Of a DNA stretch of 64,000 nucleotides, positions 2,889-19,579 are shown in pieces. Position numbers and translations under genes: made by a program. A model generated the notes under the pieces. The model saw only the letters and a program-made list of their open reading frames with translations. It searched no databases and was not told the origin of the DNA. Source of the stretch: Candidatus Rifleibacterium sp. (GTDB lineage: Bacteria; Muiribacteriota; Ozemobacteria; Ozemobacterales; Ozemobacteraceae). The first letter of the stretch is position 1; every line of letters starts with the position of its first letter. The DNA lies in contig DAOPYA010000003.1 in NCBI GenBank assembly GCA_035352635.1, positions 21,506-85,505 of the forward strand. Direction: 5' to 3'.

Positions 2889-3607
2889 GAATCCAGAAGC
2901 TGCTGGCGAACTGGGGAGCGGCGTCAAGAAGAGCCATTGAGCGACTGATCGATGAAAAAGCCATCAGTACCGACGGCATACCGGTCGAAGGGCAAGGGAC
3001 CCTTGTCGATGCAGACAATCCCCCTGAAATACGCATCAATGGCAAGCTGATCACACCGCCACGCGACAAGGTCTGCCGGGTTTATGCATTTAATAAGCCG
3101 ATGCTGGTCATTACGACTCTCAAAGACGAGCGTGGCCGGCGCACCATAGCCGATTACCTGCCAGTCGGTCAGCGACTCTACCCGGTTGGCCGCCTCGATT
3201 ACGACTCGACCGGTTTGCTGATCATCACCGACCACGGTGAACTGACTAACCGTCTGCTGCACCCTTCTTACAAAGTCGAAAAAGAGTATCTCGTCAAAAT
3301 TACGGGCGCAGAACTGTCTACAGCCGAATTTGCAATGTTTACCAGCGGGTTGCAGCTTGACGACGGCTTGACTCTGCCCTGCCAGCTGAAAAAGCTCGCC
3401 GAACCAGGCACTTATTCGGTTACGATACGAGAAGGGCGAAAACGTCAGGTTCGACGGATGTTCTCATGCCTTGGGCATAAAGTTCTCAGCCTGCACCGCA
3501 CCCGGTTCGGGCCGCTGAGCATCGGCAACCTCAAGGCAGGCGAACTCAGAGAACTCAGCGTAGAAGAAAAAGCAGCCCTGCTGAAATCAGCAGGGCTGCA
3601 TGAATAA
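2876..3607 (+). CDS. rluB: RsuA/RluB-family 16S/23S rRNA pseudouridine synthase (S4 domain + catalytic domain)
   Basis: N-terminal S4-like segment (IQKLLANWGAASRRAIERLIDEKAISTDG). Catalytic motif GRLDYDSTGLLIITDHGELTNRLLHP is typical of RsuA/RluB. Confidence 0.75.
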   Translation: MQLVRIQKLLANWGAASRRAIERLIDEKAISTDGIPVEGQGTLVDADNPPEIRINGKLITPPRDKVCRVYAFNKPMLVITTLKDERGRRTIADYLPVGQRLYPVGRLDYDSTGLLIITDHGELTNRLLHPSYKVEKEYLVKITGAELSTAEFAMFTSGLQLDDGLTLPCQLKKLAEPGTYSVTIREGRKRQVRRMFSCLGHKVLSLHRTRFGPLSIGNLKAGELRELSVEEKAALLKSAGLHE

Positions 3608-4698: not shown

Positions 4699-6498
4699 TT
4701 ATGCCTCCAGATTGCTGATGGTATAAAGCTCAACTTCGTTGGCTTTACCACGTAAACTCGTCTTTGCCAGAAATTTCCAGGGAATTTCTGCCTTTGTTGA
4801 TTTTACCACTTCTCCGCTGACGAGCAGAGAAGTTTGATATTCTTTGTTGAGGCTTTCCATGCGCGAGCAGGCGTTAACCGTGTCGCCGATAACCGTAAAT
4901 TCAGCCTTTCGCTCTGAGCCGATATTGCCAAACACCACATTGCCGGCGTGCAGTGCCAGGCCAACTTTTAAGTCTACTCCATAGCAGGTTGCTTTGAATT
5001 CAGGGGAAGCGGTGAAAGCAATAATCTCTCGGGCCGCCTTGACTGCGTCATCTGCATAGTCGGCATGTTCGACCGGCGCGTTGAAAAATGCCAGCAGGCC
5101 ATCACCCAGAAACTTATCTACTACGCCGCGGTTCGCCATAATAATGTCAGTCAGACGGGCAAAGTAGGCATTGAGAAACTGCACAATTTCGGGGGCATCG
5201 CGCTGTTCGCTGAATGAGGTAAAGCCTCTGATATCAGCGATAAGAATACACAATCTTCGGCGCTTGCCCTGCAGAAAATCACGATCATTTGAGGCGAGTA
5301 TTTCTTTGACGACCGAGTCACTGACATAACGGCTGAAAATGGCCCGCACACGCCGCCGGTCGAGATAAATGGCGCGGTAGGCGAGAAATCGCTCAGCGGT
5401 TATGAAGACGGCGAGAAGCAGCAACGGGCGCACCACCGGTATTACCAGGGGGTCGAACCATAAGACCGCCATAATCGGCCAGCCAACAAAGAGCAACGCC
5501 GCGCAGACAAGCGATGCATTACGTTGCCAGCGGGCAATCAGCAGCAGACCGATAAGAAGCGCCACAATCACCATGATCTCGTGCTGCCGTGACATGGGTT
5601 GCAGAAAGCGGTCATTGAGAATGTTATCAAGGATATTGGCGTGTATTTCGACCCCGGGCATATAGTCATAGGGGGTCGCTTTGAAATCTGTGATATCAGT
5701 AAAGCCCAGCAAAACGATTTTCCCGGCAAGATCGTTATTTAATGACCCGCCGGCACGGGCAGACTCAAGCAGACGCCGCACCGGAACTGTTTTTATCGTA
5801 CCGCGCGGGCCACGGTAGCTTATCTGCTGAATCGGGTTGGCGGATAGCGGTTGTTTATAATAACCACTGCGCATGGCGGCAACCATGGCTACGGCATGCA
5901 CAGCCCCGGCAGGCCCGGTTCCGGAAAGCTGAACGTTGCGGATAACGCCGTCGTGTGAGGTTGCCAGATTGAAATACCCGGTGTTTTCTTTTCGGGCAAT
6001 ATGCAGAAGGGTCGGGTCAGAGAAGACGGGTTGGTTTTTTTCCCAGGCGTAGCCGGCGATCAACGATGCCCCTGAAGCGACAAACTCAAGCAGAGCAGTT
6101 CTGAATGGCTTTTCGAAGCCAATTTCGCGAAAAAAGCGGCCGGGCAGATCAAGACCAAGCCGTTCACCCGTTTCGCGCACGTGGTCACGAATAACCGATT
6201 CAGAGCCTGGCGAGAACACCAGGTCGAGCAGCAGGGCCGAAGCCGAAGCCTGGCTGACCGCCCTGGTCAGTTCAGCATAGATCGGGCCCCAGGCAAACAT
6301 CGGCCGACCAGCCCAGGCAAGGGTTTCCTGGTCTATGCCTGCGATGACGATTCTGGAATCAGGCGTCACAGCACCACGCCAGCGAAACTGCATGTCGAGC
6401 ACCCGGTTTTCGGCATCGTCAATCAATCTGAAATCGCCGCCATATATTAACAGCCCAAGAATCAGACAGATTAACCAGGTCAATGCATTCAGTCTCAT
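4699..6498 (-). CDS. CHASE2 sensor domain class III adenylate/guanylate cyclase
   Basis: N-terminal TM, periplasmic CHASE2-like region and three TM helices. The C-terminal CYC domain carries LCILIADIRGFTSFSE...FLGDGLLAFFNAP...GNVVFGNIGS. Confidence 0.85.
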   Translation of the reverse strand: MRLNALTWLICLILGLLIYGGDFRLIDDAENRVLDMQFRWRGAVTPDSRIVIAGIDQETLAWAGRPMFAWGPIYAELTRAVSQASASALLLDLVFSPGSESVIRDHVRETGERLGLDLPGRFFREIGFEKPFRTALLEFVASGASLIAGYAWEKNQPVFSDPTLLHIARKENTGYFNLATSHDGVIRNVQLSGTGPAGAVHAVAMVAAMRSGYYKQPLSANPIQQISYRGPRGTIKTVPVRRLLESARAGGSLNNDLAGKIVLLGFTDITDFKATPYDYMPGVEIHANILDNILNDRFLQPMSRQHEIMVIVALLIGLLLIARWQRNASLVCAALLFVGWPIMAVLWFDPLVIPVVRPLLLLAVFITAERFLAYRAIYLDRRRVRAIFSRYVSDSVVKEILASNDRDFLQGKRRRLCILIADIRGFTSFSEQRDAPEIVQFLNAYFARLTDIIMANRGVVDKFLGDGLLAFFNAPVEHADYADDAVKAAREIIAFTASPEFKATCYGVDLKVGLALHAGNVVFGNIGSERKAEFTVIGDTVNACSRMESLNKEYQTSLLVSGEVVKSTKAEIPWKFLAKTSLRGKANEVELYTISNLEA

Positions 6499-6735: not shown

Positions 6736-7053
6736 ATGACATCCCTTCGCATTCAGGAACACCCGGTTCTCAGTTTTCCGGAACGCAAACTGGTTAAGTT
6801 TTTCTTCGAAGATCGTGAGTATGAGGGCTATGAAGGCGAACCAATCGCGGCTGCCCTTCATGCTGCCGGGGTTAAGACCCTGCGCCGCAGCCCTCAGAAG
6901 AATCGCGCCCGAGGGTTCTTCTGTGCCATCGGCCGCTGTTCAAGCTGCATAATGGAAGTTGACGGCCAGGTAAATATCATGACCTGTATCACTCCGTTGA
7001 AACCAGGCATGAAGATCCGCATGCAGAAAGGGCACGGTGTCATTCACCCATGA
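6736..7053 (+). CDS. 2Fe-2S ferredoxin-like small subunit of a heteromeric FAD amino-acid dehydrogenase/oxidase (SoxA-N / HcnA-like)
   Basis: Cys cluster FFCAIGRCSSCIMEVDG...MTC, placed as the first gene of the operon. RBS AAGGAGGAAAGGG lies upstream. Confidence 0.55.
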   Translation: MTSLRIQEHPVLSFPERKLVKFFFEDREYEGYEGEPIAAALHAAGVKTLRRSPQKNRARGFFCAIGRCSSCIMEVDGQVNIMTCITPLKPGMKIRMQKGHGVIHP

Positions 7054-8147
7054 GCAGAAAAACAGAAGTTTTTATAATCGGCGGTGGCCCGGCCGGCCTT
7101 TCTGCCGCAACAGTAGCGGCAGAACTGGGTGCCCAGACCCTTCTCGTCGATGACAGTGCCAGGCTTGGCGGTCAGCTGATCAAGCAGACCCATCGGTTCT
7201 TCGGCAGCAGCAATCGCGATGCAGGCATTCGCGGCATAACCATTGCCAACAAACTTTGCGAAGAAGTTAAATCAGCGTCTGACCGGCTGACTGTTCTCGA
7301 GAACACTGCTGCCGTTGGGTTTTACGCCAACAAGGAAGCCGGAATACTTTCTCAAAGTGCTTATGAGCGGGTATCATATCAGGCAGCCATTGTCTGTACC
7401 GGGGCTACCGAGAACAGTCTTGCCTTTGAGAACAATGACCTGCCTGGCATTTATGGTGCTGGCGGCGTGCAAACCCTGATGAATGTCCATGGCATCAAGC
7501 CAGGCCAGAAAATTCTCATGGTTGGCAGCGGTAACATCGGCTTGATCGTCAGTTATCAGTTGATTCAGGCTGGGGTCGAAGTTGTTGGCCTGGTCGAAGG
7601 CATGCCAAACATCGGCGGCTATCTGGTGCATGCCAGCAAAATCCGCCGACTGGGCGTGCCAATCTACACTTCACATACTATCCTGAAAGCCCTAGGCGAG
7701 ACGGGCGTCGGCGGCGCGGTGCTCTGCCGGGTTGACGAAAAATTTCAGGCGGTTCCCAATACTGAATTCGAAGTTAACTGCGACTGTATCTGCCTCGCGG
7801 TTGGCCTGACCCCGCTGATCGACCTGTTTCAACAGGCCCAGTGCCGCATGGTGCATGTCGGCGAACTTGGTGGTCTGGTTCCGCTGCATGATTCAGCCAT
7901 GCGCACAACCAACCATGATATTTTTGTGGCCGGTGATGCCTCGGGCATTGAAGAAGCAACCACCGCGATGCTGGCCGGGCGAATAGCCGGAGCCAAAGCC
8001 TACGAAAGCATTCACGGCAAATCTGTTAAAGCAGAAGCCATTGTTGAAGAAGCCCGCGAAGAATTACGCACCCTCAGGTCAGGCTCAACAGGTGACCGCA
8101 TTCGCTGGGGCCGCGAACGGGTGCTCAAGGAGGCAGGATCATGTTAA
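7050..8147 (+). CDS. FAD/NAD(P)-binding oxidoreductase, alpha-like subunit (HcnB/OoxA/PdhB-like)
   Basis: Dinucleotide-binding motif VFIIGGGPAGLSAA, a second GxGxxG (MVGSGNIGLIV) and FVAGDASG. Start overlaps the upstream stop (ATGA). Confidence 0.75.
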   Translation: MSRKTEVFIIGGGPAGLSAATVAAELGAQTLLVDDSARLGGQLIKQTHRFFGSSNRDAGIRGITIANKLCEEVKSASDRLTVLENTAAVGFYANKEAGILSQSAYERVSYQAAIVCTGATENSLAFENNDLPGIYGAGGVQTLMNVHGIKPGQKILMVGSGNIGLIVSYQLIQAGVEVVGLVEGMPNIGGYLVHASKIRRLGVPIYTSHTILKALGETGVGGAVLCRVDEKFQAVPNTEFEVNCDCICLAVGLTPLIDLFQQAQCRMVHVGELGGLVPLHDSAMRTTNHDIFVAGDASGIEEATTAMLAGRIAGAKAYESIHGKSVKAEAIVEEAREELRTLRSGSTGDRIRWGRERVLKEAGSC

Positions 8148-8626
8148 AAAATACCGGTATCCCTACCGCTGAAGAGTTAAAAAATGTAATGCCACCCCAC
8201 GAAAGACTGGCAAAAGGCCCGGTTGCAATCATAGAGTGCCTCCAGGATATCCCCTGTGACCCATGCGTTTCAGCATGCCCGGTGCATGCTATTCAGATGC
8301 AGTCTGGAATCACCGACCGGCCGCAGCTGAATTTCGATAAATGCACTGGTTGCGGCGCCTGCGTGCCCAAATGCCCTGGCCTGGCCATCTTCATCGTTAA
8401 CATGCAGCATAAAGTCGCCGGCATGGCAACTTTGTCGCTGAGCTACGAACTGCTGCCCATTCCGGCAAAAGACAGCGAAGTTGACGCCCTCGACCGTTCA
8501 GGCAAGTTCCTCTGCCGGGCAAAGGTCATCAGGGTCATCAACCCGCCGGCCTACGACCGAACCGCCGTTGTTACCATTGAAGTTCCCGCCGACCGGATCA
8601 ACGATATCCGTGCCATACGAGTTTGA
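8141..8626 (+). CDS. 2x[4Fe-4S] ferredoxin-like subunit
   Basis: Two Cys clusters: CDPCVSACPVHAI and CTGCGACVPKCPGLAI. Confidence 0.7.
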   Translation: MLKNTGIPTAEELKNVMPPHERLAKGPVAIIECLQDIPCDPCVSACPVHAIQMQSGITDRPQLNFDKCTGCGACVPKCPGLAIFIVNMQHKVAGMATLSLSYELLPIPAKDSEVDALDRSGKFLCRAKVIRVINPPAYDRTAVVTIEVPADRINDIRAIRV

Positions 8627-8640
8627 CAGGGAGAGCCAAC

Positions 8641-8931
8641 ATGAAAATCATCTGCAGATGTATGGATGTAACCGAAGACGAAATCATTGCCGCCATTAGA
8701 CAGGGCGCAACTACCATTGACGAAATCCGAAGACTGGTGAGGGCCGGCATGGGTTCGTGTCAGGGTCGCACCTGTCGCCGCCTGGTTTCGCAGATTATCA
8801 GCCGCGAGCTCAAAACCCCCGCAGCCGAAATTTACCCGCCTACCTTCAGACCACCTAACCGACCGGTTGCGTTTGAGCTGATCAATGCCGAACTCGCCAC
8901 CCACGATCAGGAAAACGGAGAAGGCAAATGA
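8641..8931 (+). CDS. BFD-like [2Fe-2S]-binding domain protein
   Basis: CRCMDVTEDEI...GMGSCQGRTCRRL is a BFD-like motif. Start taken at ATG 8641, which follows a GGGAGAG RBS; the track ORF begins at 8623. Confidence 0.6.
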   Translation: MKIICRCMDVTEDEIIAAIRQGATTIDEIRRLVRAGMGSCQGRTCRRLVSQIISRELKTPAAEIYPPTFRPPNRPVAFELINAELATHDQENGEGK

Positions 8932-10073
8932 ACAGAGCATTTGACGCAGTAATCATTGGGGGCGGCATTCTGGGCGTTTCGACTGCTTATGAACTGGCAC
9001 GCGCCGGTATGACAAAGATCTGCGTTCTTGAAAGAAAATATCTGGCCAGCGGGTCAAGTGGTCGCTGTGGTGGCGGTTTCAGGCAGCAGTGGAGCACTGA
9101 AGCCAACACTACTCTTGCCATGGCCGCAGTAACGCGTCTTGAAGGTCTTGAAGAAGAGCTTGGCTACCGCACTGAATTCTATCAGGGCGGATACCTGATT
9201 CTCGCGCACACCGAAGAAGAAGAGCGGCAGTTTGAGAAAAATGTTGCCATGCAGCGCCGTCTAGGCCTGGAAGTTGACGTGGTCGATCCTGACGAAGCTC
9301 GCAAGATTGTTCCCTTTCTCAATACCGAACTAATTCGCAAGGCCACCTGGTGCCCGAAAGACGGTCATATTAACCCATTTCTGCTGACTCAGGGCTATGC
9401 CAACGCGGCGAAGCGCCTGGGCGCTGAAATACACCTCTGGACCAACGTCACCGGCATCATGAAAAAGAGCAATATCTTCTTCGTGATGACCGAAAATGGC
9501 AACACCTACCAGACTCCGCTGCTGTTCAATTGCGCCGGCGGGTTTTCCCGGGGGATCGGCGAAATGCTGAATGTCGATATTCCGGTTGACCCTTATCGTC
9601 ACGAGATTCTGGTCACCGAACCGGTTGAGCGACTCTGGGACCCGATGGTCATCAGTTTCAGTGTTGGTCTCTACGCGCGCCAGGAAATGAGCGGCGGGGT
9701 GGTCATGGGGATGGGCGACCCGAATGAACCCGTTGGCACCCAGGTTGGCAGTTCAATGCACTTCATGTATGAAATGAGCCGGCGGTTCACCCAGTTGTTT
9801 CCGAAGCTTGATAAAATGCGCATTGTCAGGCAATGGGCGGGGCTGTATGAAATGACAGCAGATGCCCAGCCGATTCTCGGGCCAGTCGCTGATGTTGACA
9901 ACTTTATTCAGGCCAGTGGCTTTTCTGGGCATGGTCTGATGCTTGCGCCTGCTGTCAGCCAACTGCTGGCAGGCATGGTAGTCAGAAAAGAAAAAAGCGA
10001 AGTGATTGACAGCCTGAACGTTAAACGCCTCTACAACCTGAAAGACGTTACCCGCGAAAAATCAGTTGTTTGA
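8928..10073 (+). CDS. FAD-dependent oxidoreductase, DAO family, beta-like subunit (sarcosine oxidase beta / proline dehydrogenase beta / HcnC-like)
   Basis: FDAVIIGGGILGVSTAYELARAG...ERKYLASGSSGRCGGGF...HGLMLAPA. Confidence 0.8.
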   Translation: MNRAFDAVIIGGGILGVSTAYELARAGMTKICVLERKYLASGSSGRCGGGFRQQWSTEANTTLAMAAVTRLEGLEEELGYRTEFYQGGYLILAHTEEEERQFEKNVAMQRRLGLEVDVVDPDEARKIVPFLNTELIRKATWCPKDGHINPFLLTQGYANAAKRLGAEIHLWTNVTGIMKKSNIFFVMTENGNTYQTPLLFNCAGGFSRGIGEMLNVDIPVDPYRHEILVTEPVERLWDPMVISFSVGLYARQEMSGGVVMGMGDPNEPVGTQVGSSMHFMYEMSRRFTQLFPKLDKMRIVRQWAGLYEMTADAQPILGPVADVDNFIQASGFSGHGLMLAPAVSQLLAGMVVRKEKSEVIDSLNVKRLYNLKDVTREKSVV

Positions 10074-10086
10074 CGCCCTGAAATAG

Positions 10087-11805
10087 ATGCTGTCGATGGA
10101 ATATTTATCGAACAGGAAGTTTTGCCGCATGCTAATGACACGAACAGATTGTAAAATAAGAGTTACAGGTCTTCTGTTGCTTGCCGGCCTGATTTTATTC
10201 TGCTCTGATGCATTTGCATCGCGGCAGCGCATGGAACTGGCCGAACCCGATCATTCATCGACGCTTACCGGAGTGCTGGTTGTTGCCCCACTCTTCGAAA
10301 AAACCGGAAACGGCTGGGATCCCTACAAACGGGAGTCACAGGATCCGATTGTCGAGTTGTTCGGCGGTGACGGCAAGATGCTTTCTTATGCCCGCAGCGC
10401 TTTTGCCGAAGGCAAAGACCCTGATTATCTGGTCAAATTCAGACAGGTTGCCGGCAAATATCTGCAGGGCAGCAAAACCATAGAAGATGCCCTGAAAGCC
10501 CGTCAGAAAGCCCGCTGGATAATAAATCGCGAACTCACAAGTGACCCGGGCAGGTCTGAAAAGGCGGCCAAGCCTGATGCCAAGGCCGTTCTTCAGCAGT
10601 GGGTCGAGGAACCGCTGGCTCTGTTGCCGAGAACTCCTATACCCGGCCTTGAATCGACCGGCCCGCATGCAGTACCTCACCCGCTGGCCGTTTACAACGA
10701 TAGAAACGAGTGTGTCGCTTTTGACTCGTTCTTTATCGTAATTGCTGATTCAGAAAGGCACTCGGCTCAGGAAGTGCCCTTCAATGTTGCCAGATCCGTA
10801 GAGAATGACACGCTCGATCTGGTTGTCTGTCATGAAATGGCGCATGGCATCATGTTCGATGCCTATGGCCGGCCGCATAACACCAAGGTTGGCCGTGGCC
10901 CAAGCATTCACGGTCACACGGCCAATCTGATCACCGACCGCGAAAAAGCCTGGCTTGAAGGCTGGGCCGAAGCTTTTGAGGCTTTTTACGGACGCAACCG
11001 CAAGATTACCCGACTCGGCGAATCACATTATGGCATTGCCTCGTTTCTCATTGACCGTCAGGATTCAGTGCGCCGCGACCGCTGGCTATGGCTGACCGGA
11101 AAAGCGAATAAGGCCGCGCAGATGAAAAATGCCGCGCAGATGATGGCCAGCGAAGGCGTTATCGCCGGACTGTTTTTCGATATTCTCTCGAACCGGGCTC
11201 TGGTTTCGCCTTTTGAAAAATCGATCACCGTTATGGTCAGGCGCAACCCCAAAGATTTTGCAGCATTCGTCAATGCCTGGCTGGAACTCTTTCCCGGCGA
11301 CCGCCGCACTATACTGCGTATTGTGCTTGAACATACCAGGTATGCTACTTTCGATCCTTCGGTAACTGCTCTTTACCAGGAATTTTACCGCGTGCGCCGT
11401 GCCCTGCAGACACGCGAAGGCAGCAATAGCGAAGCTCTGGTTGCCGAAAAGGCATATTTAAAAGCCAAAGAAGAAGCTTTCGCCAAGGCTCTTGCCGGCG
11501 CCGACCCCTTTTCCGCGCTCCCCCCCCAACTCTGGATCGGCATCGAAAATCTTACCCGAAAAGACGGCAGGGTAACCCGCATGGCCAGATTGAACATCGA
11601 TCTAAACAGTGTCGATGCATTTCTGCTCGAATACTCAGGCTTGTTTGAAAAACCTCAAATCGCAGAATTTCTGGCAACTCGCGATAAACAGGGATTTTTT
11701 CGCGGCAACCCCATCGAAGTGTTGCGCAGCTTTTTCGGCGCTGAGCGCTGGAAAAACCTGCCCGACGAGGGCGTTAAATTTTACCCCGAACTTCTCCTGC
11801 CTTAG
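10087..11805 (+). CDS. secreted zincin-like putative metallopeptidase (HExxH...EGWAEAFE) with C-terminal ComEA-type helix-hairpin-helix domain; paralog 1
   Basis: Signal peptide LLLLAGLILFCSDAFA; an alternative start at the internal Met 10129 is possible. Motifs are NDTLDLVVCHEMAHGIMFD and EGWAEAFEAFYG. The C-terminus NIDLNSVDAFLLEYSGL...ATRDKQGFFRGNPIE resembles ComEA HhH. It shares long colinear identity with the next gene. Confidence 0.6.
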   Translation: MLSMEYLSNRKFCRMLMTRTDCKIRVTGLLLLAGLILFCSDAFASRQRMELAEPDHSSTLTGVLVVAPLFEKTGNGWDPYKRESQDPIVELFGGDGKMLSYARSAFAEGKDPDYLVKFRQVAGKYLQGSKTIEDALKARQKARWIINRELTSDPGRSEKAAKPDAKAVLQQWVEEPLALLPRTPIPGLESTGPHAVPHPLAVYNDRNECVAFDSFFIVIADSERHSAQEVPFNVARSVENDTLDLVVCHEMAHGIMFDAYGRPHNTKVGRGPSIHGHTANLITDREKAWLEGWAEAFEAFYGRNRKITRLGESHYGIASFLIDRQDSVRRDRWLWLTGKANKAAQMKNAAQMMASEGVIAGLFFDILSNRALVSPFEKSITVMVRRNPKDFAAFVNAWLELFPGDRRTILRIVLEHTRYATFDPSVTALYQEFYRVRRALQTREGSNSEALVAEKAYLKAKEEAFAKALAGADPFSALPPQLWIGIENLTRKDGRVTRMARLNIDLNSVDAFLLEYSGLFEKPQIAEFLATRDKQGFFRGNPIEVLRSFFGAERWKNLPDEGVKFYPELLLP

Positions 11806-11959
11806 CTGGGAAGTAATTACCGATGGGCGCCATGGTTCAAAAAATCTAAACCCGTTCCCCGAAAAATAGCGACGCTATTTTTCGGGCGACGGGGTACCAT
11901 TGACGGTTTCTAATTTTATCAGTAAAATACTAAGATAATCTCATCAGGAGGGCCAGACA

Positions 11960-13735
11960 GTGAAATTTCGCCTTAAAAATGCCTTTGCAGTGCTTCTCAC
12001 CGCCGGAACCATCTATTCAGGAGCAGCTTTCGGCAGAGCGCCGGTTACCAATCTCTCGGGTGACCCTAGCCCGGTTGATGGTTCAATGGTAATCATGCAG
12101 CCAATCACCGTTGGCAAAGGTAACATCGTTGGTGGGCTTATTGGCAAGACCCTCAATATTCCGAAGCAGGTTAAAATCGATGACGCCGGTTATCTGGTTT
12201 TCGCTCTTGCAGCTGATGCCATTCAGGTTAGCCCGGCTGACCCGAAAGGCTACCATGTGGTAACCGCCCTTCCATACCTTACGGGCAGCAAAGAAATGCA
12301 GGATTCTCTCAAACTGAGAAGAACCGCACGCCAGATTCGCTTTCAGGCCCTGAAAGATGCGATCAGCAAAACTGACGCCCTGAATGCCGAACAAAAGAAG
12401 AGTGTTCTGAATTTTCTGTCGCAGTCGGTCGGCACACCCATGGTTGTTTTGTCAAAATCGCCGTTGCCGTCATTCATGCCGTCACCGGGGCCATGCATGA
12501 TTCCGCTTGGCGCCGAAATGGTCGAAAACAAGACTGGCAAGCGCCTTGGCCTTGAAACTTCAATGATCTGTGTTCTCGATATCGAATCAGAAGGCAAAAA
12601 GATTTTCTCGGTCGATGACGCCCTGAAGAACGATACTCTCGACCTGGTGGTTGCCCACGAAAACGGCCATGCCATCATGTTCGACCTCTATGGCAAACTT
12701 TTTCAAAAGATTCAGCGCACTTCTTCGAATGGTCACGATGCCCCGATCATCACTGACGTGGGTCTTGCCTATGTAGAAGGTTGGGCAGAAGCATTCGAAG
12801 CCGTTTATGGGCCTGCAAACCCCAAACTGGCCGAAAAAGACCGCACCAAATACAATATCTCTGAATTCCTTTACAGCCGCCAGGATCCGATCCGCCGCGA
12901 CCGCTATGTCTGGGCCAGCAATACCGGCAAAAAAACCGGCGTAATCAAGAATGGCCTGCAGCTGATGTCAACCGAAGGCGTTCTGGCCGGTTTCTTCTAC
13001 GATATTCTTACCAGCCGCGCCATTAATGCCCCATACGAAAAATGCGTGCAGACGATGCTGACCTCGCCAATGAACTTCATGGAATTCGTCGAAAACTATG
13101 TGAAGCTTTTTCCTGAAGATAAAAAAGTCGTCTACCGCATCATGCTCGAAAATTCTCACTACGTTACCATGCACGAAAATGCCGCCGAAAGTTACAAGAA
13201 TTTCTATGAATTCAAGGTAGCCTACACCCAGAAGAAAATTGACAAAGCCGACTACGACAAGGCCAAAACTCAGTATAAAGCCTATACCGAAGGTCTGTTC
13301 GCCGAAGCCATGAAAACTGACAAGGTTTTTGCCAATGTCGGGCCGCAGATGTGGTTCGCCGGCAAGATCAACCTGACCCAGCTCAAAAAAGAAGCCAGCG
13401 CCGTTAAGAAGTATTTCGCCGCCGCCTTCGGCAAAAAAGACGAATATTACGAATTCAGGCTCGACCTGAATACCGCCACCGCCGACATGTTCAGAATGAT
13501 CGGTTTTGCCGAAGCCGATGCCGCCAAACTGGTTACCGCACGCGACGAAAAAGGCTTCTTCACAGGCAATCCGGTCAGCATCATCAAGCAGACTGTCGGT
13601 GATGAGCGCTTTGCCAAATACAATGCCGTTCTCAATCTGGCTCCTTATGACCACCAGAAAGCCGACGTCATTGCCCAGTATAAAGAACAATCTCTGGCCA
13701 TGTGGCCCGAAGATATTGCCAAACTCGGCAAGTAA
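11960..13735 (+). CDS. secreted zincin-like putative metallopeptidase with C-terminal ComEA-type HhH domain; paralog 2
   Basis: GTG start with an AGGAGG RBS. Signal peptide, NDTLDLVVAHENGHAIMFD, EGWAEAFEAVYG, and C-terminal LDLNTATADMFRMIGFAEADAAKLVTARDEKGFFTGNPV. Confidence 0.6.
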   Translation: MKFRLKNAFAVLLTAGTIYSGAAFGRAPVTNLSGDPSPVDGSMVIMQPITVGKGNIVGGLIGKTLNIPKQVKIDDAGYLVFALAADAIQVSPADPKGYHVVTALPYLTGSKEMQDSLKLRRTARQIRFQALKDAISKTDALNAEQKKSVLNFLSQSVGTPMVVLSKSPLPSFMPSPGPCMIPLGAEMVENKTGKRLGLETSMICVLDIESEGKKIFSVDDALKNDTLDLVVAHENGHAIMFDLYGKLFQKIQRTSSNGHDAPIITDVGLAYVEGWAEAFEAVYGPANPKLAEKDRTKYNISEFLYSRQDPIRRDRYVWASNTGKKTGVIKNGLQLMSTEGVLAGFFYDILTSRAINAPYEKCVQTMLTSPMNFMEFVENYVKLFPEDKKVVYRIMLENSHYVTMHENAAESYKNFYEFKVAYTQKKIDKADYDKAKTQYKAYTEGLFAEAMKTDKVFANVGPQMWFAGKINLTQLKKEASAVKKYFAAAFGKKDEYYEFRLDLNTATADMFRMIGFAEADAAKLVTARDEKGFFTGNPVSIIKQTVGDERFAKYNAVLNLAPYDHQKADVIAQYKEQSLAMWPEDIAKLGK

Positions 13736-13755
13736 TCGCTGCAAGTCACTCACTA

Positions 13756-13789
13756 CCGGCCGCTCCATCAGGGGCGGCCGGTTTTATTT
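13756..13789 (+). terminator. rho-independent terminator after paralog 2
   Basis: CCGGCCGC-loop-GCGGCCGG stem followed by TTTTATTT. Confidence 0.55.
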
Positions 13790-13823
13790 GCAGCCCTTTC
13801 GGGCAGCGGTTATAATCTGAAAC

Positions 13824-17776: not shown

Positions 17777-19579
17777 TCAGCGCATAACAAAGGTATCAAA
17801 CCAGAGTTGCGCACCGGCGGGCATGTTAGCAGCGACCCGAACCTGCACAGCCTTAACCAGGCCTTCTTCTTCTTTTTGCAGCTCATATTTGCACGAATGC
17901 GAGGTTGCCTGCCATCGATCGGGCAGAGCCTCAAATTCAAACTGGGCCAGACGGCGGGCCAGGGGCTTGCCTGCAGCGTCGAGCAGCTCAACTACTACCA
18001 TTCCCTTCTGCTGGCGATCACCCATAAAAAACAATGACCAGGCCAGCGGCTGACCGGCTTTTAATGCATCAACCGGCACTGGCGCAAAAGCAAACCCTGA
18101 TTCGCCTTCCTGGGTCGCCTTAAATTTAAGAGAAGCGTAGCCTGTATTAAATTTGTCATAATCGATGCTGACAAGTTCTGGAGCCCCGACCACCCCTGTC
18201 GGAACGCCGTTACCTTCGTTTCGTTCAAAATCACCGCCAGGCAGAAGATTGGCAGCAACCGGTGTTGCCGCGAAGGGGCGCAGACTGAGGTCGTCGAACA
18301 GAACGCTTCCTTGAGAGAATGGCCCGGTCTGCAGCAAGATGCGCATAAAGGCGTTGTTGGCTGCAAAAATCTTCTTTTCTTTGCTGTTCACCAGCCGGGC
18401 ATCTATTTTCTGCCATTCGCCACCCAGAACCGCCATCGGCCTGATCGCCCAGATACGGTTGCGAAGACGTTTGCCGGCGTCATAAAGTTCGATACCGATC
18501 GCCGCATTTTGAGTGCCGTTCTCTGAGCGAGCCTCGATCGAAAAGGCCAGGTCAGATGCTTCGTTAATCGCGATAAAATCAGATAAGACACGGGTGGCTG
18601 AATTGCGTTCTTCAGGCCACATCTGCAGAGCTTTGCGGCCAGAAGCGGCTGTCTGTTGCGAGAGACCGGCCTTGCCTTCTGCAATCTGCCAACCCGGAAG
18701 CAGGCCCGCCGAAGTCGAAGCCGCTTCAAAGCTGTAATTGTTGATCAGGTTGGTCTGTTCGATGGTCATAATCTGCCGGGTATTAGCAAATACAGCGCCC
18801 GGAGCAACATTCATCTTGCTCAGATTATTACGGGCATTCTGAATACGCTGACTGGAAGGCGGATGAGAACTGAGATACTGCTCAAGACCCTTGGAGTCAC
18901 CATACCTTTTCAGAAACTTTTCCCAGAGGGTTACCTGGGCGGCCGGGTTATAGCCGGCGCGGGCAATTCGCATCTGACCGATATCGTCAGCTTCGTCTTC
19001 CTGTTCGCGTGAAAATTTCATCAGAGTGATATAGCTGAGCAGGGCTCCCCAGGTTTCACGGTCCTGCCTGTTTTTGACGGCTTTATTCAAAACGGCGACC
19101 ATAAGGGTTGAAGCCCGAAAATTTCGCAGCGAATGCCGGCGTTCGGCATGACCGAGTTCGTGGCTTATTACAGCGGCGAGTTCATCGTCTGATTCTACCA
19201 TGTCGAGCATTCCTGAATGAACGTAGACGTGCCCGCCGGGAATAACAAAGGCATTGGCGGTGCTATCCTGGATAACCCGAACGTCATACTTCATGCCCCG
19301 GTCTTTAAAATGCGGCAACAGACGATTGAAAATGCCTTTGACATATTCGGTTACTTTTTTGTCTTTGACTGGCTTCTGCGTCAGCCCCATCCATAATTGC
19401 AGTTCCTTGCCAAATCTTTTTTCGGCGCCGACATCACCGACCAGCCAAAGACTCATGTTTACTTCCTGGTAGGTCTGATAAACCCCCAGTAACTGCTCAA
19501 GAACGTTTTTGGCCGAAACTCTGGCGCTGCCCAAAAGCGATATCAGAACAATAACAATTGCATATCTGCATTTAATCAT
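17777..19579 (-). CDS. M48-family (Ste24/BepA-like) Zn metallopeptidase with two C-terminal CBM4/9-like beta-sandwich domains
   Basis: Signal peptide, VISHELGHAERRHS (HExxH) and EADDIGQMRIARAGYNP. The C-terminal roughly 330 aa carry two repeats that start NLINNYSFEAAS and NLLPGGDFERNEG. Confidence 0.75.
   Translation of the reverse strand: MIKCRYAIVIVLISLLGSARVSAKNVLEQLLGVYQTYQEVNMSLWLVGDVGAEKRFGKELQLWMGLTQKPVKDKKVTEYVKGIFNRLLPHFKDRGMKYDVRVIQDSTANAFVIPGGHVYVHSGMLDMVESDDELAAVISHELGHAERRHSLRNFRASTLMVAVLNKAVKNRQDRETWGALLSYITLMKFSREQEDEADDIGQMRIARAGYNPAAQVTLWEKFLKRYGDSKGLEQYLSSHPPSSQRIQNARNNLSKMNVAPGAVFANTRQIMTIEQTNLINNYSFEAASTSAGLLPGWQIAEGKAGLSQQTAASGRKALQMWPEERNSATRVLSDFIAINEASDLAFSIEARSENGTQNAAIGIELYDAGKRLRNRIWAIRPMAVLGGEWQKIDARLVNSKEKKIFAANNAFMRILLQTGPFSQGSVLFDDLSLRPFAATPVAANLLPGGDFERNEGNGVPTGVVGAPELVSIDYDKFNTGYASLKFKATQEGESGFAFAPVPVDALKAGQPLAWSLFFMGDRQQKGMVVVELLDAAGKPLARRLAQFEFEALPDRWQATSHSCKYELQKEEEGLVKAVQVRVAANMPAGAQLWFDTFVMR

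What the first reader, a model, noticed from the sequence alone, without database searches (positions are those of the whole stretch)
10087..13735. Tandem paralogous secreted proteins: novel zincin-like core (HExxH...EGWAEAFE) fused to a ComEA-type HhH DNA-binding domain
Two adjacent genes encode 572- and 591-aa secreted proteins that share long blocks of identity. The shared blocks are NDTLDLVV-HE-xH-IMFD, EGWAEAFEA-YG, RRDR, STEGV-AGFF-DIL, and a C-terminal LDLN..A......ARD--GFF-GNP helix-hairpin-helix like periplasmic ComEA. The HExxH ... EGxAE arrangement echoes BSP-type and other zincin-like families, but I cannot match it to a named one. A secreted metalloprotease-like domain joined to an extracellular DNA-binding HhH is an unusual architecture. 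It could act on DNA-associated proteins during eDNA or competence processing, or anchor a hydrolase to extracellular DNA. The duplication suggests a lineage-specific expansion. A hairpin lies between the two genes at 11858-11886.
Basis: partly seen in the sequence, partly recalled or inferred. Interest (0 to 1): 0.7.

Follow-up and report, generated by a model that had tools for sequence, protein, structure and literature searches.

The report
Unannotated exported zinc protease pair
Two neighbouring genes of a Riflebacteria genome encode diverged copies of an unannotated family of exported thermolysin-like zinc proteases that always carry a ComEA-like helix-hairpin-helix tail. The finding is real and moderately new, but the tail has lost ComEA's DNA-binding residues, and the pair arose by a recent gene insertion, not a duplication.

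Summary
Gene A (10087/10129-11805) and gene B (11960-13735) are paralogues: 35% identity, E = 5e-85. Both have signal-peptide-like leaders and share every quoted motif.

The protease-HhH fusion is conserved across a superfamily of at least 450 clusters. It spans Riflebacteria, Wallbacteria, UBP16, Clostridia, Acidobacteriota and Aminicenantes. RefSeq names some members "ComEA family DNA-binding protein".

The tandem pair is not a local duplication. Gene A is a 1.82-kb insert that is absent from about 30 syntenic loci, including a strain 92% identical in its flanks. It is far closer to the Ca. Rifleibacterium amylolyticum copy (dS 0.19) than gene B is (dS 1.56).

The most likely function is extracytoplasmic proteolysis.

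The parts
10087..11805 (+). Gene A. The longest ORF is 572 aa; the probable true start is ATG 10129 (558 aa). It is an exported gluzincin-like metallopeptidase with a C-terminal HhH-fold domain.
   Evidence: ORF. 35% identity to B. RBS-like AGGAAG 9 nt before 10129. Gene callers give 558 aa. dN/dS 0.13 against the L073 orthologue.
10129..10218 (+). Predicted signal peptide of A (MLMTRTDCKIRVTGLLLLAGLILFCSDAFA|SRQ).
   Evidence: Hydropathy peak and an AxA-like site. No dedicated predictor was run. F at position -1 argues against a lipobox.
10831..10845 (+). HEMAH zinc-binding/catalytic motif of A (residues 249-253 of the 572-aa ORF).
   Evidence: This column is invariant or nearly invariant in alignments A1, A2 and A5.
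10957..10983 (+). EGWAEAFEA 'glutamate helix' of A. The first Glu is the probable third zinc ligand.
   Evidence: DNA sequence. E and G are invariant in all alignments.
11584..11766 (+). C-terminal HHH_3-like domain of A (IDLNSV...ATRDKQGFFRGNP...FGAERW).
   Evidence: Aligned with B and with the ComEA, EEPD1 and Tex fragments.
10074..11892 (.). A 1.82-kb insert that carries gene A and the hairpin. It is absent from all other syntenic loci.
   Evidence: blastn break points are L003 5936|5937 and L078 3430|3427. The insert is 93.7% identical to L073 while the flanks are about 77% identical to that genome. L078, with B 97% identical, lacks it.
11851..11893 (+). Interrupted stem-loop of about 19 bp (perfect palindrome 11858-11886) at the 3' edge of the insert, with no U-tract. 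It is a possible transcript-end or insulating hairpin.
   Evidence: It is not present in L073, L003, L006 or L078.
11900..11928 (+). Sigma-70-like promoter of B (TTGACG-17-TAAAAT). The hexamers and the spacing are conserved in L003, L006 and L078 while the spacer sequence varies.
   Evidence: scan. (orthologous intergenic sequences). The function is inferred.
11946..11952 (+). AGGAGGG ribosome-binding site of B, 7 nt before GTG 11960.
   Evidence: It is conserved in L003, L006 and L078.
11960..13735 (+). Gene B (591 aa). It is an exported gluzincin-like metallopeptidase with a C-terminal HhH-fold domain, and is the resident, syntenic copy.
   Evidence: dN/dS 0.04 against L078.
11960..12034 (+). 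Predicted signal peptide of B (MKFRLKNAFAVLLTAGTIYSGAAFG|RAP).
   Evidence: Basic n-region followed by a hydrophobic stretch. The leader is conserved in the family alignment.
12656..12670 (+). HENGH motif of B (H233, E234, H237), on model helix 227-250.
12734..12757 (+). Loop from H259 to D266 (GHDAPIITD), invariant across the superfamily. It is a candidate transition-state or substrate-positioning element, or an alternative metal ligand.
   Evidence: H259 in 36/40 and D266 in 35/40 sequences of A2; both invariant in A5. The model confidence is lower here.
12776..12802 (+). EGWAEAFEA of B (E273-A281) on model helix 267-286. E273 is the probable third zinc ligand.
   Evidence: E273 and G274 are invariant in A1, A2, A4 and A5. 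Helix assignment.
12974..12988 (+). Second invariant motif, E339-G340-x-x-A343 (STEGVLAG), in the helical C-terminal lobe.
   Evidence: E339 38/40, G340 39/40 and A343 38/40 in A2; all invariant in A5.
13448..13654 (+). C-terminal HHH_3-fold domain of B (about residues 497-565: LDLNTAT...IGFAEADAAKLVTARDEKGFF...VGDERF).
13755..13792 (+). Intrinsic-terminator-like site after B (12-bp G+C-rich stem followed by a T-run).

Best explanation
A and B are two anciently diverged paralogues of a previously unannotated family of zinc metallopeptidases. The family has a thermolysin-like (gluzincin, clan MA(E)) catalytic fold.

Each protein is made with a Sec-type leader and works outside the cytoplasm. 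Inferred mechanism, in B numbering: His233 and His237 of the HExxH helix, plus Glu273 of the following 'EGWAE' helix, hold the zinc. Glu234 acts as the general base. The invariant His259...Asp266 loop and the Glu339-Gly340 motif line the cleft.

The C-terminal domain of about 70 residues has the ComEA/HHH_3 fold and is fused to this protease core throughout a multi-phylum superfamily, so the two parts work together. In the Riflebacteria proteins it has lost the glycine hairpins and the lysine that ComEA uses to grip DNA. I therefore read it as a targeting, anchoring or substrate-docking module whose ligand is not established. DNA is possible but not favoured.

The most likely biological role is extracytoplasmic protein breakdown for a fermentative heterotroph.

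The tandem arrangement is secondary. B is the resident gene with its own conserved promoter. A was inserted as a single-gene 1.82-kb segment directly behind the stop codon of the upstream Sox-like operon. It came from a donor close to Ca. Rifleibacterium amylolyticum. It is probably transcribed by read-through from that operon and closed off by the hairpin at the end of the insert.

Shown: paralogy, fold class, motif invariance, HhH fold, degeneration of the ComEA DNA-binding determinants, the insertion and its discordant divergence, and purifying selection.

Inferred: zinc ligands, export, peptidase activity, physiological role, transcription pattern.
For: Paralogy and motifs.

No curated family covers the core. 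The precomputed Pfam columns show only HHH_3, T2SSK or HHH_6.

Active-site constraint: H233, E234, H237, H259, D266, E273, G274, E339 and G340 are invariant or at least 90% conserved down to about 18% identity. E273 lies on the helix directly after the HExxH helix.

Selection: dN/dS is 0.13 for A and 0.04 for B.

Export: leader present in 70 of 73 members.

HhH fold. Loss of the ComEA determinants: against PMC3879209.

Superfamily-wide fusion.

Degradative neighbourhoods: Peptidase_S41 + S9 + amidohydrolases; oligopeptide ABC + amidohydrolase; glycosidases and esterases; SoxAB-like amino-acid dehydrogenase cluster. Riflebacteria are described as fermentative heterotrophs (PMC7509429).

Insertion. 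Conserved B promoter.
Against: - No coordinates were available, so the zinc-site geometry, the identity of the third ligand (E273 or H259) and the packing of the HhH domain were not checked.
- The profile alignment to thermolysin was reliable only at HExxH.
- The signal peptides were judged by hydropathy only.
- Clostridial members of the superfamily lack a leader, so export is not universal.
- Genomic contexts are heterogeneous, with no conserved partner, so the nutritional role is a weak inference.
- B has its own promoter, so its synteny with the Sox-like cluster need not mean functional coupling.
- Some relatives (for example P0274) keep a canonical LPGIG...R HhH1, so DNA binding may be ancestral and cannot be excluded for A and B.
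Confidence: 0.62

Rival explanations
1. DNA-anchored or DNA-guided extracellular protease. The HhH domain binds extracellular or periplasmic DNA. It tethers the protease to eDNA in flocs or biofilm, or directs it to DNA-associated proteins during eDNA or competence processing.
For: The C-terminal domain is HHH_3/ComEA-like by profile and by fold. The LNTAT cap and the RxxxGxF core are conserved (R528 corresponds to ComEA R71). Some superfamily members score above Pfam's HHH_3 threshold and keep a canonical LPGIG hairpin followed by a basic residue. The fusion is conserved across phyla, so the domain is functionally required. HhH2 keeps one Gly and one Arg/Lys.
Against: In A, B and all 39 close relatives the second Gly of HhH1 is lost. 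The position of ComEA's DNA-contacting Lys is Asp or Glu in most of them. K62/K63 and the GIG hairpin are required for DNA binding in V. cholerae ComEA (PMC3879209; alignment). The domain's net charge is -4 in B and -1 in A. No competence, pilus or nuclease genes are linked in any of about 85 loci. The same fold serves non-DNA roles in T2SS GspK, and T2SSK Pfam hits are seen here too. That GspK does not bind DNA is my own knowledge.
Confidence: 0.2
2. Envelope housekeeping or regulatory protease. A periplasmic enzyme processes specific envelope proteins, and the degenerate HhH domain serves as a protein-protein docking or structural module.
For: Leader peptide without a lipobox. Several paralogues per genome with distinct, strongly conserved sequences: B orthologues have dN/dS 0.04 and stable synteny across Ozemobacteraceae. 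The model's pTM of 0.87 for the whole chain suggests that the domains are packed and not beads on a string. In Clostridia the leaderless homologue is paired with an ArsR-type winged-helix gene, reminiscent of protease-plus-regulator pairs.
Against: No conserved envelope-biogenesis partner is nearby. The contexts are mostly catabolic. Two members have lost the HExxH, and copy number varies, including a strain-level gain of A. This fits accessory degradative enzymes better than essential housekeeping.
Confidence: 0.13
3. Non-catalytic protein with a coincidental or decayed HExxH (the refutation the reader proposed).
For: No sequence model of any peptidase family reaches threshold. Foldseek finds nothing. 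Two family members (P0119, P0129) really have lost the HExxH.
Confidence: 0.03
4. The pair is a local tandem duplication, a lineage-specific expansion in situ.
For: Two adjacent paralogues on the same strand. The family is multi-copy in many genomes.
Against: The two are only 35% identical. About 30 syntenic loci, down to 55% B identity, have no gene between the DAO-family gene and B. A strain 91.8% identical in its flanks lacks A, with clean break points. A has dS 0.19 to the R. amylolyticum copy, which sits at a different locus, against dS 1.56 for B.
Confidence: 0.02

Closest known systems
Fungalysin (MEROPS M36) and thermolysin/pseudolysin (M4), gluzincins of clan MA(E)
   Different: About 10% identity. 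Neither A nor B gives a Pfam M36 or M4 hit. The HExxH-to-Glu spacing is 35 residues, with an inserted invariant H...D loop. There is no FTP or PepSY propeptide. The N-terminal helical insert and the C-terminal helical lobe differ. An HhH domain is appended. Foldseek does not connect them.
M1 aminopeptidases (ERAP1, APN, LTA4H, tricorn F3)
   Different: No sequence-profile hit. No GxMEN exopeptidase motif is evident. The size and domain order are different.
ComEA (periplasmic or surface DNA receptor; Pfam HHH_3, PF12836)
   Different: Both G-h-G hairpins are degenerate, and the essential Lys position is acidic. A and B score below Pfam's threshold (14.9 against 27 bits). The domain is fused to a protease of about 490 residues and is not a small stand-alone DNA binder or an SLBB fusion. 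RefSeq's name 'ComEA family DNA-binding protein' for relatives describes only about 12% of the protein.
EEPD1 (tandem HhH domains fused to an endonuclease/exonuclease/phosphatase domain)
   Same: This is the best PDB profile hit for the HhH domain (E = 8e-5). It is also an HhH module appended to a hydrolase.
   Different: It is eukaryotic, the HhH is N-terminal, and the catalytic domain is unrelated (EEP fold).
SprT / Spartan / Wss1 DNA-dependent metalloproteases
   Same: Concept only: an HExxH protease joined to a DNA-binding element. There is a faint Pfam SprT-like hit around HExxH (E 0.01).

Membership tests
Gluzincin / thermolysin-like fold (clan MA(E)) | HExxH on an alpha-helix | tested here: met
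   HENGH 233-237 lies inside model helix 227-250. The motif is invariant or at least 95% conserved across the family.
Gluzincin / thermolysin-like fold (clan MA(E)) | Glu third ligand on the next helix, at least 18 residues downstream | tested here: inconclusive
   E273 is invariant and lies on helix 267-286. No coordinates were available to measure the geometry. The invariant H259 is an alternative ligand. hhalign against thermolysin was unreliable beyond HExxH.
Gluzincin / thermolysin-like fold (clan MA(E)) | Overall structural similarity to solved gluzincins | tested here: met
Gluzincin / thermolysin-like fold (clan MA(E)) | Zinc-dependent peptidase activity | not testable with these tools
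   This needs biochemistry.
Named peptidase families M36 / M4 / M1 / BSP / Peptidase_MA_2 (sequence membership) | Match to the family HMM at or above the curated cut-off | tested here: not met
   There are no such hits for A or B even at E <= 10. One of 40 relatives hits M36 at E = 8e-4, below the cut-off. PDB profile searches of the core returned nothing.
ComEA-type HhH domain (Pfam HHH_3) | HMM match at or above the gathering score | tested here: not met
   B scores 14.9 bits against a cut-off of 27, and A has no hit. Distant relatives do pass: P0161 scores 29.6 bits, and most of the P0161 branch carries a precomputed PF12836.
ComEA-type HhH domain (Pfam HHH_3) | (HhH)2 fold | tested here: met
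ComEA-type HhH domain (Pfam HHH_3) | G-h-G hairpins plus the basic residue(s) after HhH1 that contact DNA phosphates | tested here: not met
   HhH1 reads G-F-A-E-A-D in B and G-L-F-E-K-P in A. HhH2 reads V-G-D-E-R. The second Gly is absent in all 39 close relatives. The requirement is taken from PMC3879209.
ComEA-type HhH domain (Pfam HHH_3) | Non-specific DNA binding | not testable with these tools
   This needs EMSA or a similar assay.
SprT-like / Spartan DNA-dependent proteases | SprT HMM match and minigluzincin fold | tested here: not met

The most novel reading that the evidence does not exclude
The obligatory fusion of this gluzincin core to an HhH domain, kept across at least five phyla, could mark a new class of nucleic-acid-guided proteases that work outside the cytoplasm. 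Such an enzyme would dock on extracellular or periplasmic DNA, or on another polyanion, through a non-canonical HhH surface. It would then cut DNA-bound matrix or uptake proteins. This would be an extracytoplasmic counterpart of the Spartan/Wss1 principle. The leaderless Clostridial branch, paired with an ArsR-type gene, would be a cytoplasmic version.
Probability: 0.12. Interest if true: 0.8.

Novelty: new variant of a known kind. Interest (0 to 1): 0.45.

Why it matters
- **A new peptidase family.** This defines a sizeable family: at least 450 clusters at 50% identity, in Riflebacteria, Wallbacteria, UBP16, Clostridia, Acidobacteriota and Aminicenantes. It has a thermolysin-like fold that current libraries (Pfam, NCBIfam, PDB sequences) do not recognise.
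- **An annotation to correct.** Public annotation either leaves these proteins as 'hypothetical' or mislabels them as 'ComEA family DNA-binding protein'. Correcting this would change protease inventories for poorly understood candidate phyla.
- **Experiments are feasible.** Cultured Clostridia such as Sedimentibacter sp. zth1 and Desnuesiella massiliensis carry homologues.
- **An open biochemical question.** The conserved protease-HhH coupling raises the question of what an HhH fold binds once its canonical DNA-contact residues are gone.
- **Limits.** It is still a new family inside a very well known enzyme class, found in a phylum known for hundreds of novel families per genome (PMC10849945). 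A specialist would be only moderately surprised.

Tried and rejected
- Pfam and NCBIfam scans of A and B at E <= 10 gave only sub-threshold SprT-like, flagellinolysin and HHH_3 hints.
- PDB sequence searches found nothing for the core. I tried the single sequence, the full profile (C-terminal hits only) and a core-only profile (zero hits).
- Foldseek against the PDB: best E = 1.5, meaningless.
- The AFDB50 fold library was unavailable, so predicted-structure relatives were not examined.
I did not use it for ligand assignment.
- The SprT/Spartan and BSP readings were rejected.
- I searched for a conserved partner by clustering all ORFs of 80 loci. Only generic recurrences appeared: histidine kinases, a secreted ankyrin protein and oligopeptide ABC components in one lineage.
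- A's native neighbourhood in L073 is uninformative. Its upstream 185-aa ORF is not homologous to the Firmicute ArsR-type partner.
- The hairpin is not a repeated element in the window. It has no U-tract, and I found no target-site duplication or convincing terminal repeats at the insert ends. The insertion mechanism therefore stays unknown.
- A word-indexed search with a profile of distant members returned only 7 proteins and no taxonomy. The cluster look-up gave almost no names.
- Literature searches found no description of this architecture.
- Net charge of the HhH domain does not discriminate, because the ComEA fragment is itself -2.


Full report
**1. Observation**

BLASTP gives 35% identity over 452 residues (E = 5e-85), and every quoted block is present. 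tblastn finds no further copy in the window.

A most likely starts at M15 (ATG 10129). An AGGAAG lies 9 nt upstream, and gene callers on two independent assemblies call a 558-aa product. Both proteins begin with a basic stretch followed by a hydrophobic one, ending in AFA/AFG. The same kind of leader is present in 70 of 73 family members by a hydropathy criterion. I did not run a dedicated signal-peptide predictor.

The hairpin is a perfect palindrome, CCCGAAAAATAGCG-A-CGCTATTTTTCGGG, at 11858-11886. It occurs once in the window and is not expected by chance. It extends to an interrupted stem of about 19 bp at 11851-11893. The intergenic region folds at -47.2 kcal/mol (z = -3.4), and no U-tract follows the stem.

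**2. The catalytic core**

Neither protein reaches threshold in any Pfam or NCBIfam family. The best hits are SprT-like (E 0.01), flagellinolysin (0.043) and HHH_3 (0.03). PDB sequence searches find nothing for the core, whether with the single protein, the full family profile or a core-only profile.

Foldseek finds nothing (best E = 1.5), so the relationship is remote. One distant family member gives a sub-threshold Pfam M36 hit (E = 8e-4).

In the model, HENGH (233-237) lies on helix 227-250, and EGWAEAFEA (273-281) lies on the next helix, 267-286. This is the gluzincin 'active-site helix plus glutamate helix' arrangement.

Conservation is what an active site would show. In 40 sequences reaching down to about 17% identity, E273 and G274 are invariant. 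H233, E234, H237, H259, D266, A276, E280, E339, G340 and A343 are 88-98% conserved. With the most distant branch added, H233, E234, H237, H259, D266, E273, G274, R307, E339, G340, A343, W465 and R528 are invariant across 18 sequences. E277 is conserved only in the Riflebacteria-type branch.

I infer that E273 is the third zinc ligand and E234 the general base. H259 is an alternative ligand that I could not exclude, because no coordinates are exposed. A profile alignment to thermolysin was trustworthy only at HExxH.

Two relatives (P0119, P0129) have lost the HExxH and look like pseudoenzymes. A and B keep everything and evolve under purifying selection: dN/dS is 0.13 for A and 0.04 for B.

**3. 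The C-terminal domain**

The function is another matter. Seitz et al. (PMC3879209) showed that V. cholerae ComEA needs the G-I-G hairpin of HhH1 and the K62/K63 pair to bind DNA, and that R71 is structural. I aligned the family with the ComEA, EEPD1 and Tex fragments printed. The family keeps the LNTAT cap and the RxxxGxF core (R528 = R71). But HhH1 reads G-F-A-E-A-D in B and G-L-F-E-K-P in A. The second glycine is missing in all 39 close relatives, and the lysine position is usually Asp. HhH2 keeps one Gly and one basic residue. The domain's net charge (-4 in B, -1 in A) does not discriminate, because the ComEA fragment is itself -2.

I conclude that it is a ComEA-type fold, and that ComEA-type DNA binding is not supported for A and B. 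I put the probability of DNA binding at about 0.2-0.3.

**4. The family**

A word-indexed search returned 103 relatives. All the named ones are Riflebacteria, Rifleibacteriota or Ozemobacteraceae 'hypothetical proteins'.

An exhaustive profile search of 1.84 billion representatives found 450 clusters at E <= 1e-3, and 60 at E <= 1e-30.

A scan of species-representative genomes found 75 loci in Riflebacteria, Wallbacteria, UBP16 and unclassified MAGs, often with 3-5 paralogues per genome.

A distant branch of about 485 residues occurs in cultured Clostridia (Desnuesiella massiliensis, Sedimentibacter sp. zth1, Clostridium sp. 19966), Vallitalea, Acidobacteriota and Aminicenantes. NCBI and UniRef call these 'ComEA family DNA-binding protein' or 'helix-hairpin-helix domain-containing protein'. 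These proteins carry the complete catalytic signature (FSHELGHVMM...KQHxSMGITD...AFxEGWAxHFE...CEGVxATLFYRI) as well as the C-terminal LNTA...R...GxF.

The protease-HhH fusion is therefore ancient and obligatory, and existing annotation misses the protease. I found no paper describing it. Riflebacteria are known for the highest density of novel gene families per genome (PMC10849945).

**5. Context and likely role**

B is syntenic in about 30 loci, down to 55% identity. It follows a five-gene cluster (Fer2_4, Pyr_redox_2, Fer4, BFD/SO_alpha_A3, DAO) that resembles a split heterotetrameric sarcosine-oxidase-type amine or amino-acid dehydrogenase. It precedes a GT1 glycosyltransferase, an alkaline phosphatase and a NapH-like ferredoxin.

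B nevertheless has its own promoter-like site, TTGACG-17-TAAAAT. Its hexamers and spacing are conserved in L003, L006 and L078 while the spacer varies. It also has a strong AGGAGG site and a terminator. Co-transcription with the upstream cluster is therefore not implied.

Other paralogues sit in unrelated places, and ORF clustering over 80 loci found no conserved partner. Several neighbourhoods are nonetheless degradative:
- Peptidase_S41 + Peptidase_S9 + three amidohydrolases in an Aminicenantes genome
- an oligopeptide ABC transporter + amidohydrolase in a UBP16-like MAG
- glycosidases and esterases

Riflebacteria are described as fermentative heterotrophs (PMC7509429). My committed reading is an exported, broadly degradative metallopeptidase whose HhH-fold tail docks it to a substrate or matrix component. 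The role is an inference of modest strength.

**6. Origin of the tandem pair**

No syntenic locus has a gene between the DAO-family gene and B. At the DNA level, window 10074-11892 is inserted between adjacent bases of L003 (5936|5937), immediately after the DAO stop codon. Homology resumes at GGTAC(C)ATTGACG.

The insert (10089-11837) is 93.7% identical to a different locus of Ca. Rifleibacterium amylolyticum CH46 (L073). The flanks are about 77% identical to that genome's syntenic locus (L017). Synonymous divergence makes the same point: dS is 0.19 for A against L073, but 1.56 for B against L017, and 0.37 for B against the closest A-less strain L078. L078 is 91.8% identical on both sides and lacks the insert.

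The window is 100% identical to GCA_964580875.1 and 99.94% identical to an independent ENA assembly with the same arrangement. The exact B protein lies on six contigs. So this is a real, recent, strain-level acquisition, most simply by lateral transfer from an R. amylolyticum-like donor. It is not an in-situ duplication.

The last 55 bp of the insert, which include the hairpin, match neither source. I saw no target duplication or convincing terminal repeats, so the mechanism is unknown. A has no promoter-like site of its own in the scan. It probably rides on the upstream operon, with the hairpin closing the transcript ahead of B's promoter (inference).

**7. Verdict**

- Right: a novel zincin core, a ComEA-type fold, and probable export.
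- Unsupported: DNA binding or competence, the BSP resemblance, and tandem duplication.

It is a new family within a very familiar enzyme class, with an unusual and deeply conserved accessory domain. That makes it moderately interesting, mainly as an annotation correction and as a tractable biochemical question.

Noticed in passing
window 10074-11892; L003 5936|5937; L078 ~3427-3430; L073 5630-7379: Gene A is a recent single-gene insertion directly behind the stop codon of the upstream operon. Its divergence from the rest of the locus is discordant: dS 0.19 against 1.56 to R. amylolyticum. It landed right next to its own distant paralogue. The mechanism is unknown, and so is whether that placement is chance.
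   Followed up: yes
L081 6391-6951 and L082 6402-6953 (upstream of the homologue at 7001-8458): In Sedimentibacter sp. zth1 and Desnuesiella massiliensis the leaderless homologue is preceded, about 48 nt upstream on the same strand, by an ArsR-type winged-helix protein of about 185 aa (HTH_5 at or above the gathering score). This could be a protease-plus-regulator pair in the cytoplasmic branch.
   Followed up: partly
P0255, P0259, P0263, P0274: RefSeq and UniRef name these proteins of about 485 aa 'ComEA family DNA-binding protein' on the basis of the C-terminal HHH_3 domain alone. The gluzincin core of about 400 residues with its intact HExxH is not annotated.
   Followed up: partly
P0119, P0129: Two family members have SFELAQ / SFQLAQ in place of HExxH and EGFS in place of EGWA. 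They are probably catalytically dead paralogues.
   Followed up: partly
L010, L020, L023, L024: MAGs labelled Erysipelotrichia, Candidatus Methylomirabilis and Candidatus Avigastranaerophilus carry B orthologues at 65-79% identity. L010 and L020 also have the full Riflebacteria synteny. These contigs are probably mis-binned or the MAGs mislabelled.
   Followed up: no
window 6736-10073: A five-gene cluster (Fer2_4, Pyr_redox_2, 2x[4Fe-4S], BFD/SO_alpha_A3, DAO/SoxB-family) looks like a heterotetrameric sarcosine-oxidase or proline-dehydrogenase-type enzyme with its alpha subunit split into separate genes. All matches are far below the equivalog cut-offs, so the substrate is unknown.
   Followed up: partly
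B residues 26-40 and 575-585 (window ~12035-12079 and ~13682-13714): Two conserved short motifs lie outside the recognised domains. One is [AG]-[RK]-x-P-x-T-x-L-[SAG] right after the predicted signal-peptide cleavage site. The other is a C-terminal L-W-P-E-D (FYPEL in A) in a low-confidence tail. The shortest clade lacks the tail.
   Followed up: no
B residues ~98-158 (window ~12251-12433): A helical insert in the N-terminal domain carries the strongly conserved PYL..SKEM.DSLKLRRTARQIK. R124 is kept in 37 of 40 distant relatives. It could be a prosegment-like or substrate-binding element, but this could not be examined without coordinates.
   Followed up: no
L002/L052 1898-2758, L050 3075-3950, L051 3395-4255, L054 7507-8391: In the UBP16-like lineage a secreted ankyrin-repeat protein of about 290 aa lies convergently just downstream of the protease homologue in several loci.
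   Followed up: no
window 17777-19579 (-) and 4699-6498 (-): A 600-aa M48 protease with sub-threshold similarity to BepA (BAM-associated) hints at a diderm envelope. A CHASE2-adenylate/guanylate cyclase flanks the Sox-like cluster. Both are conserved in the syntenic loci.
   Followed up: no
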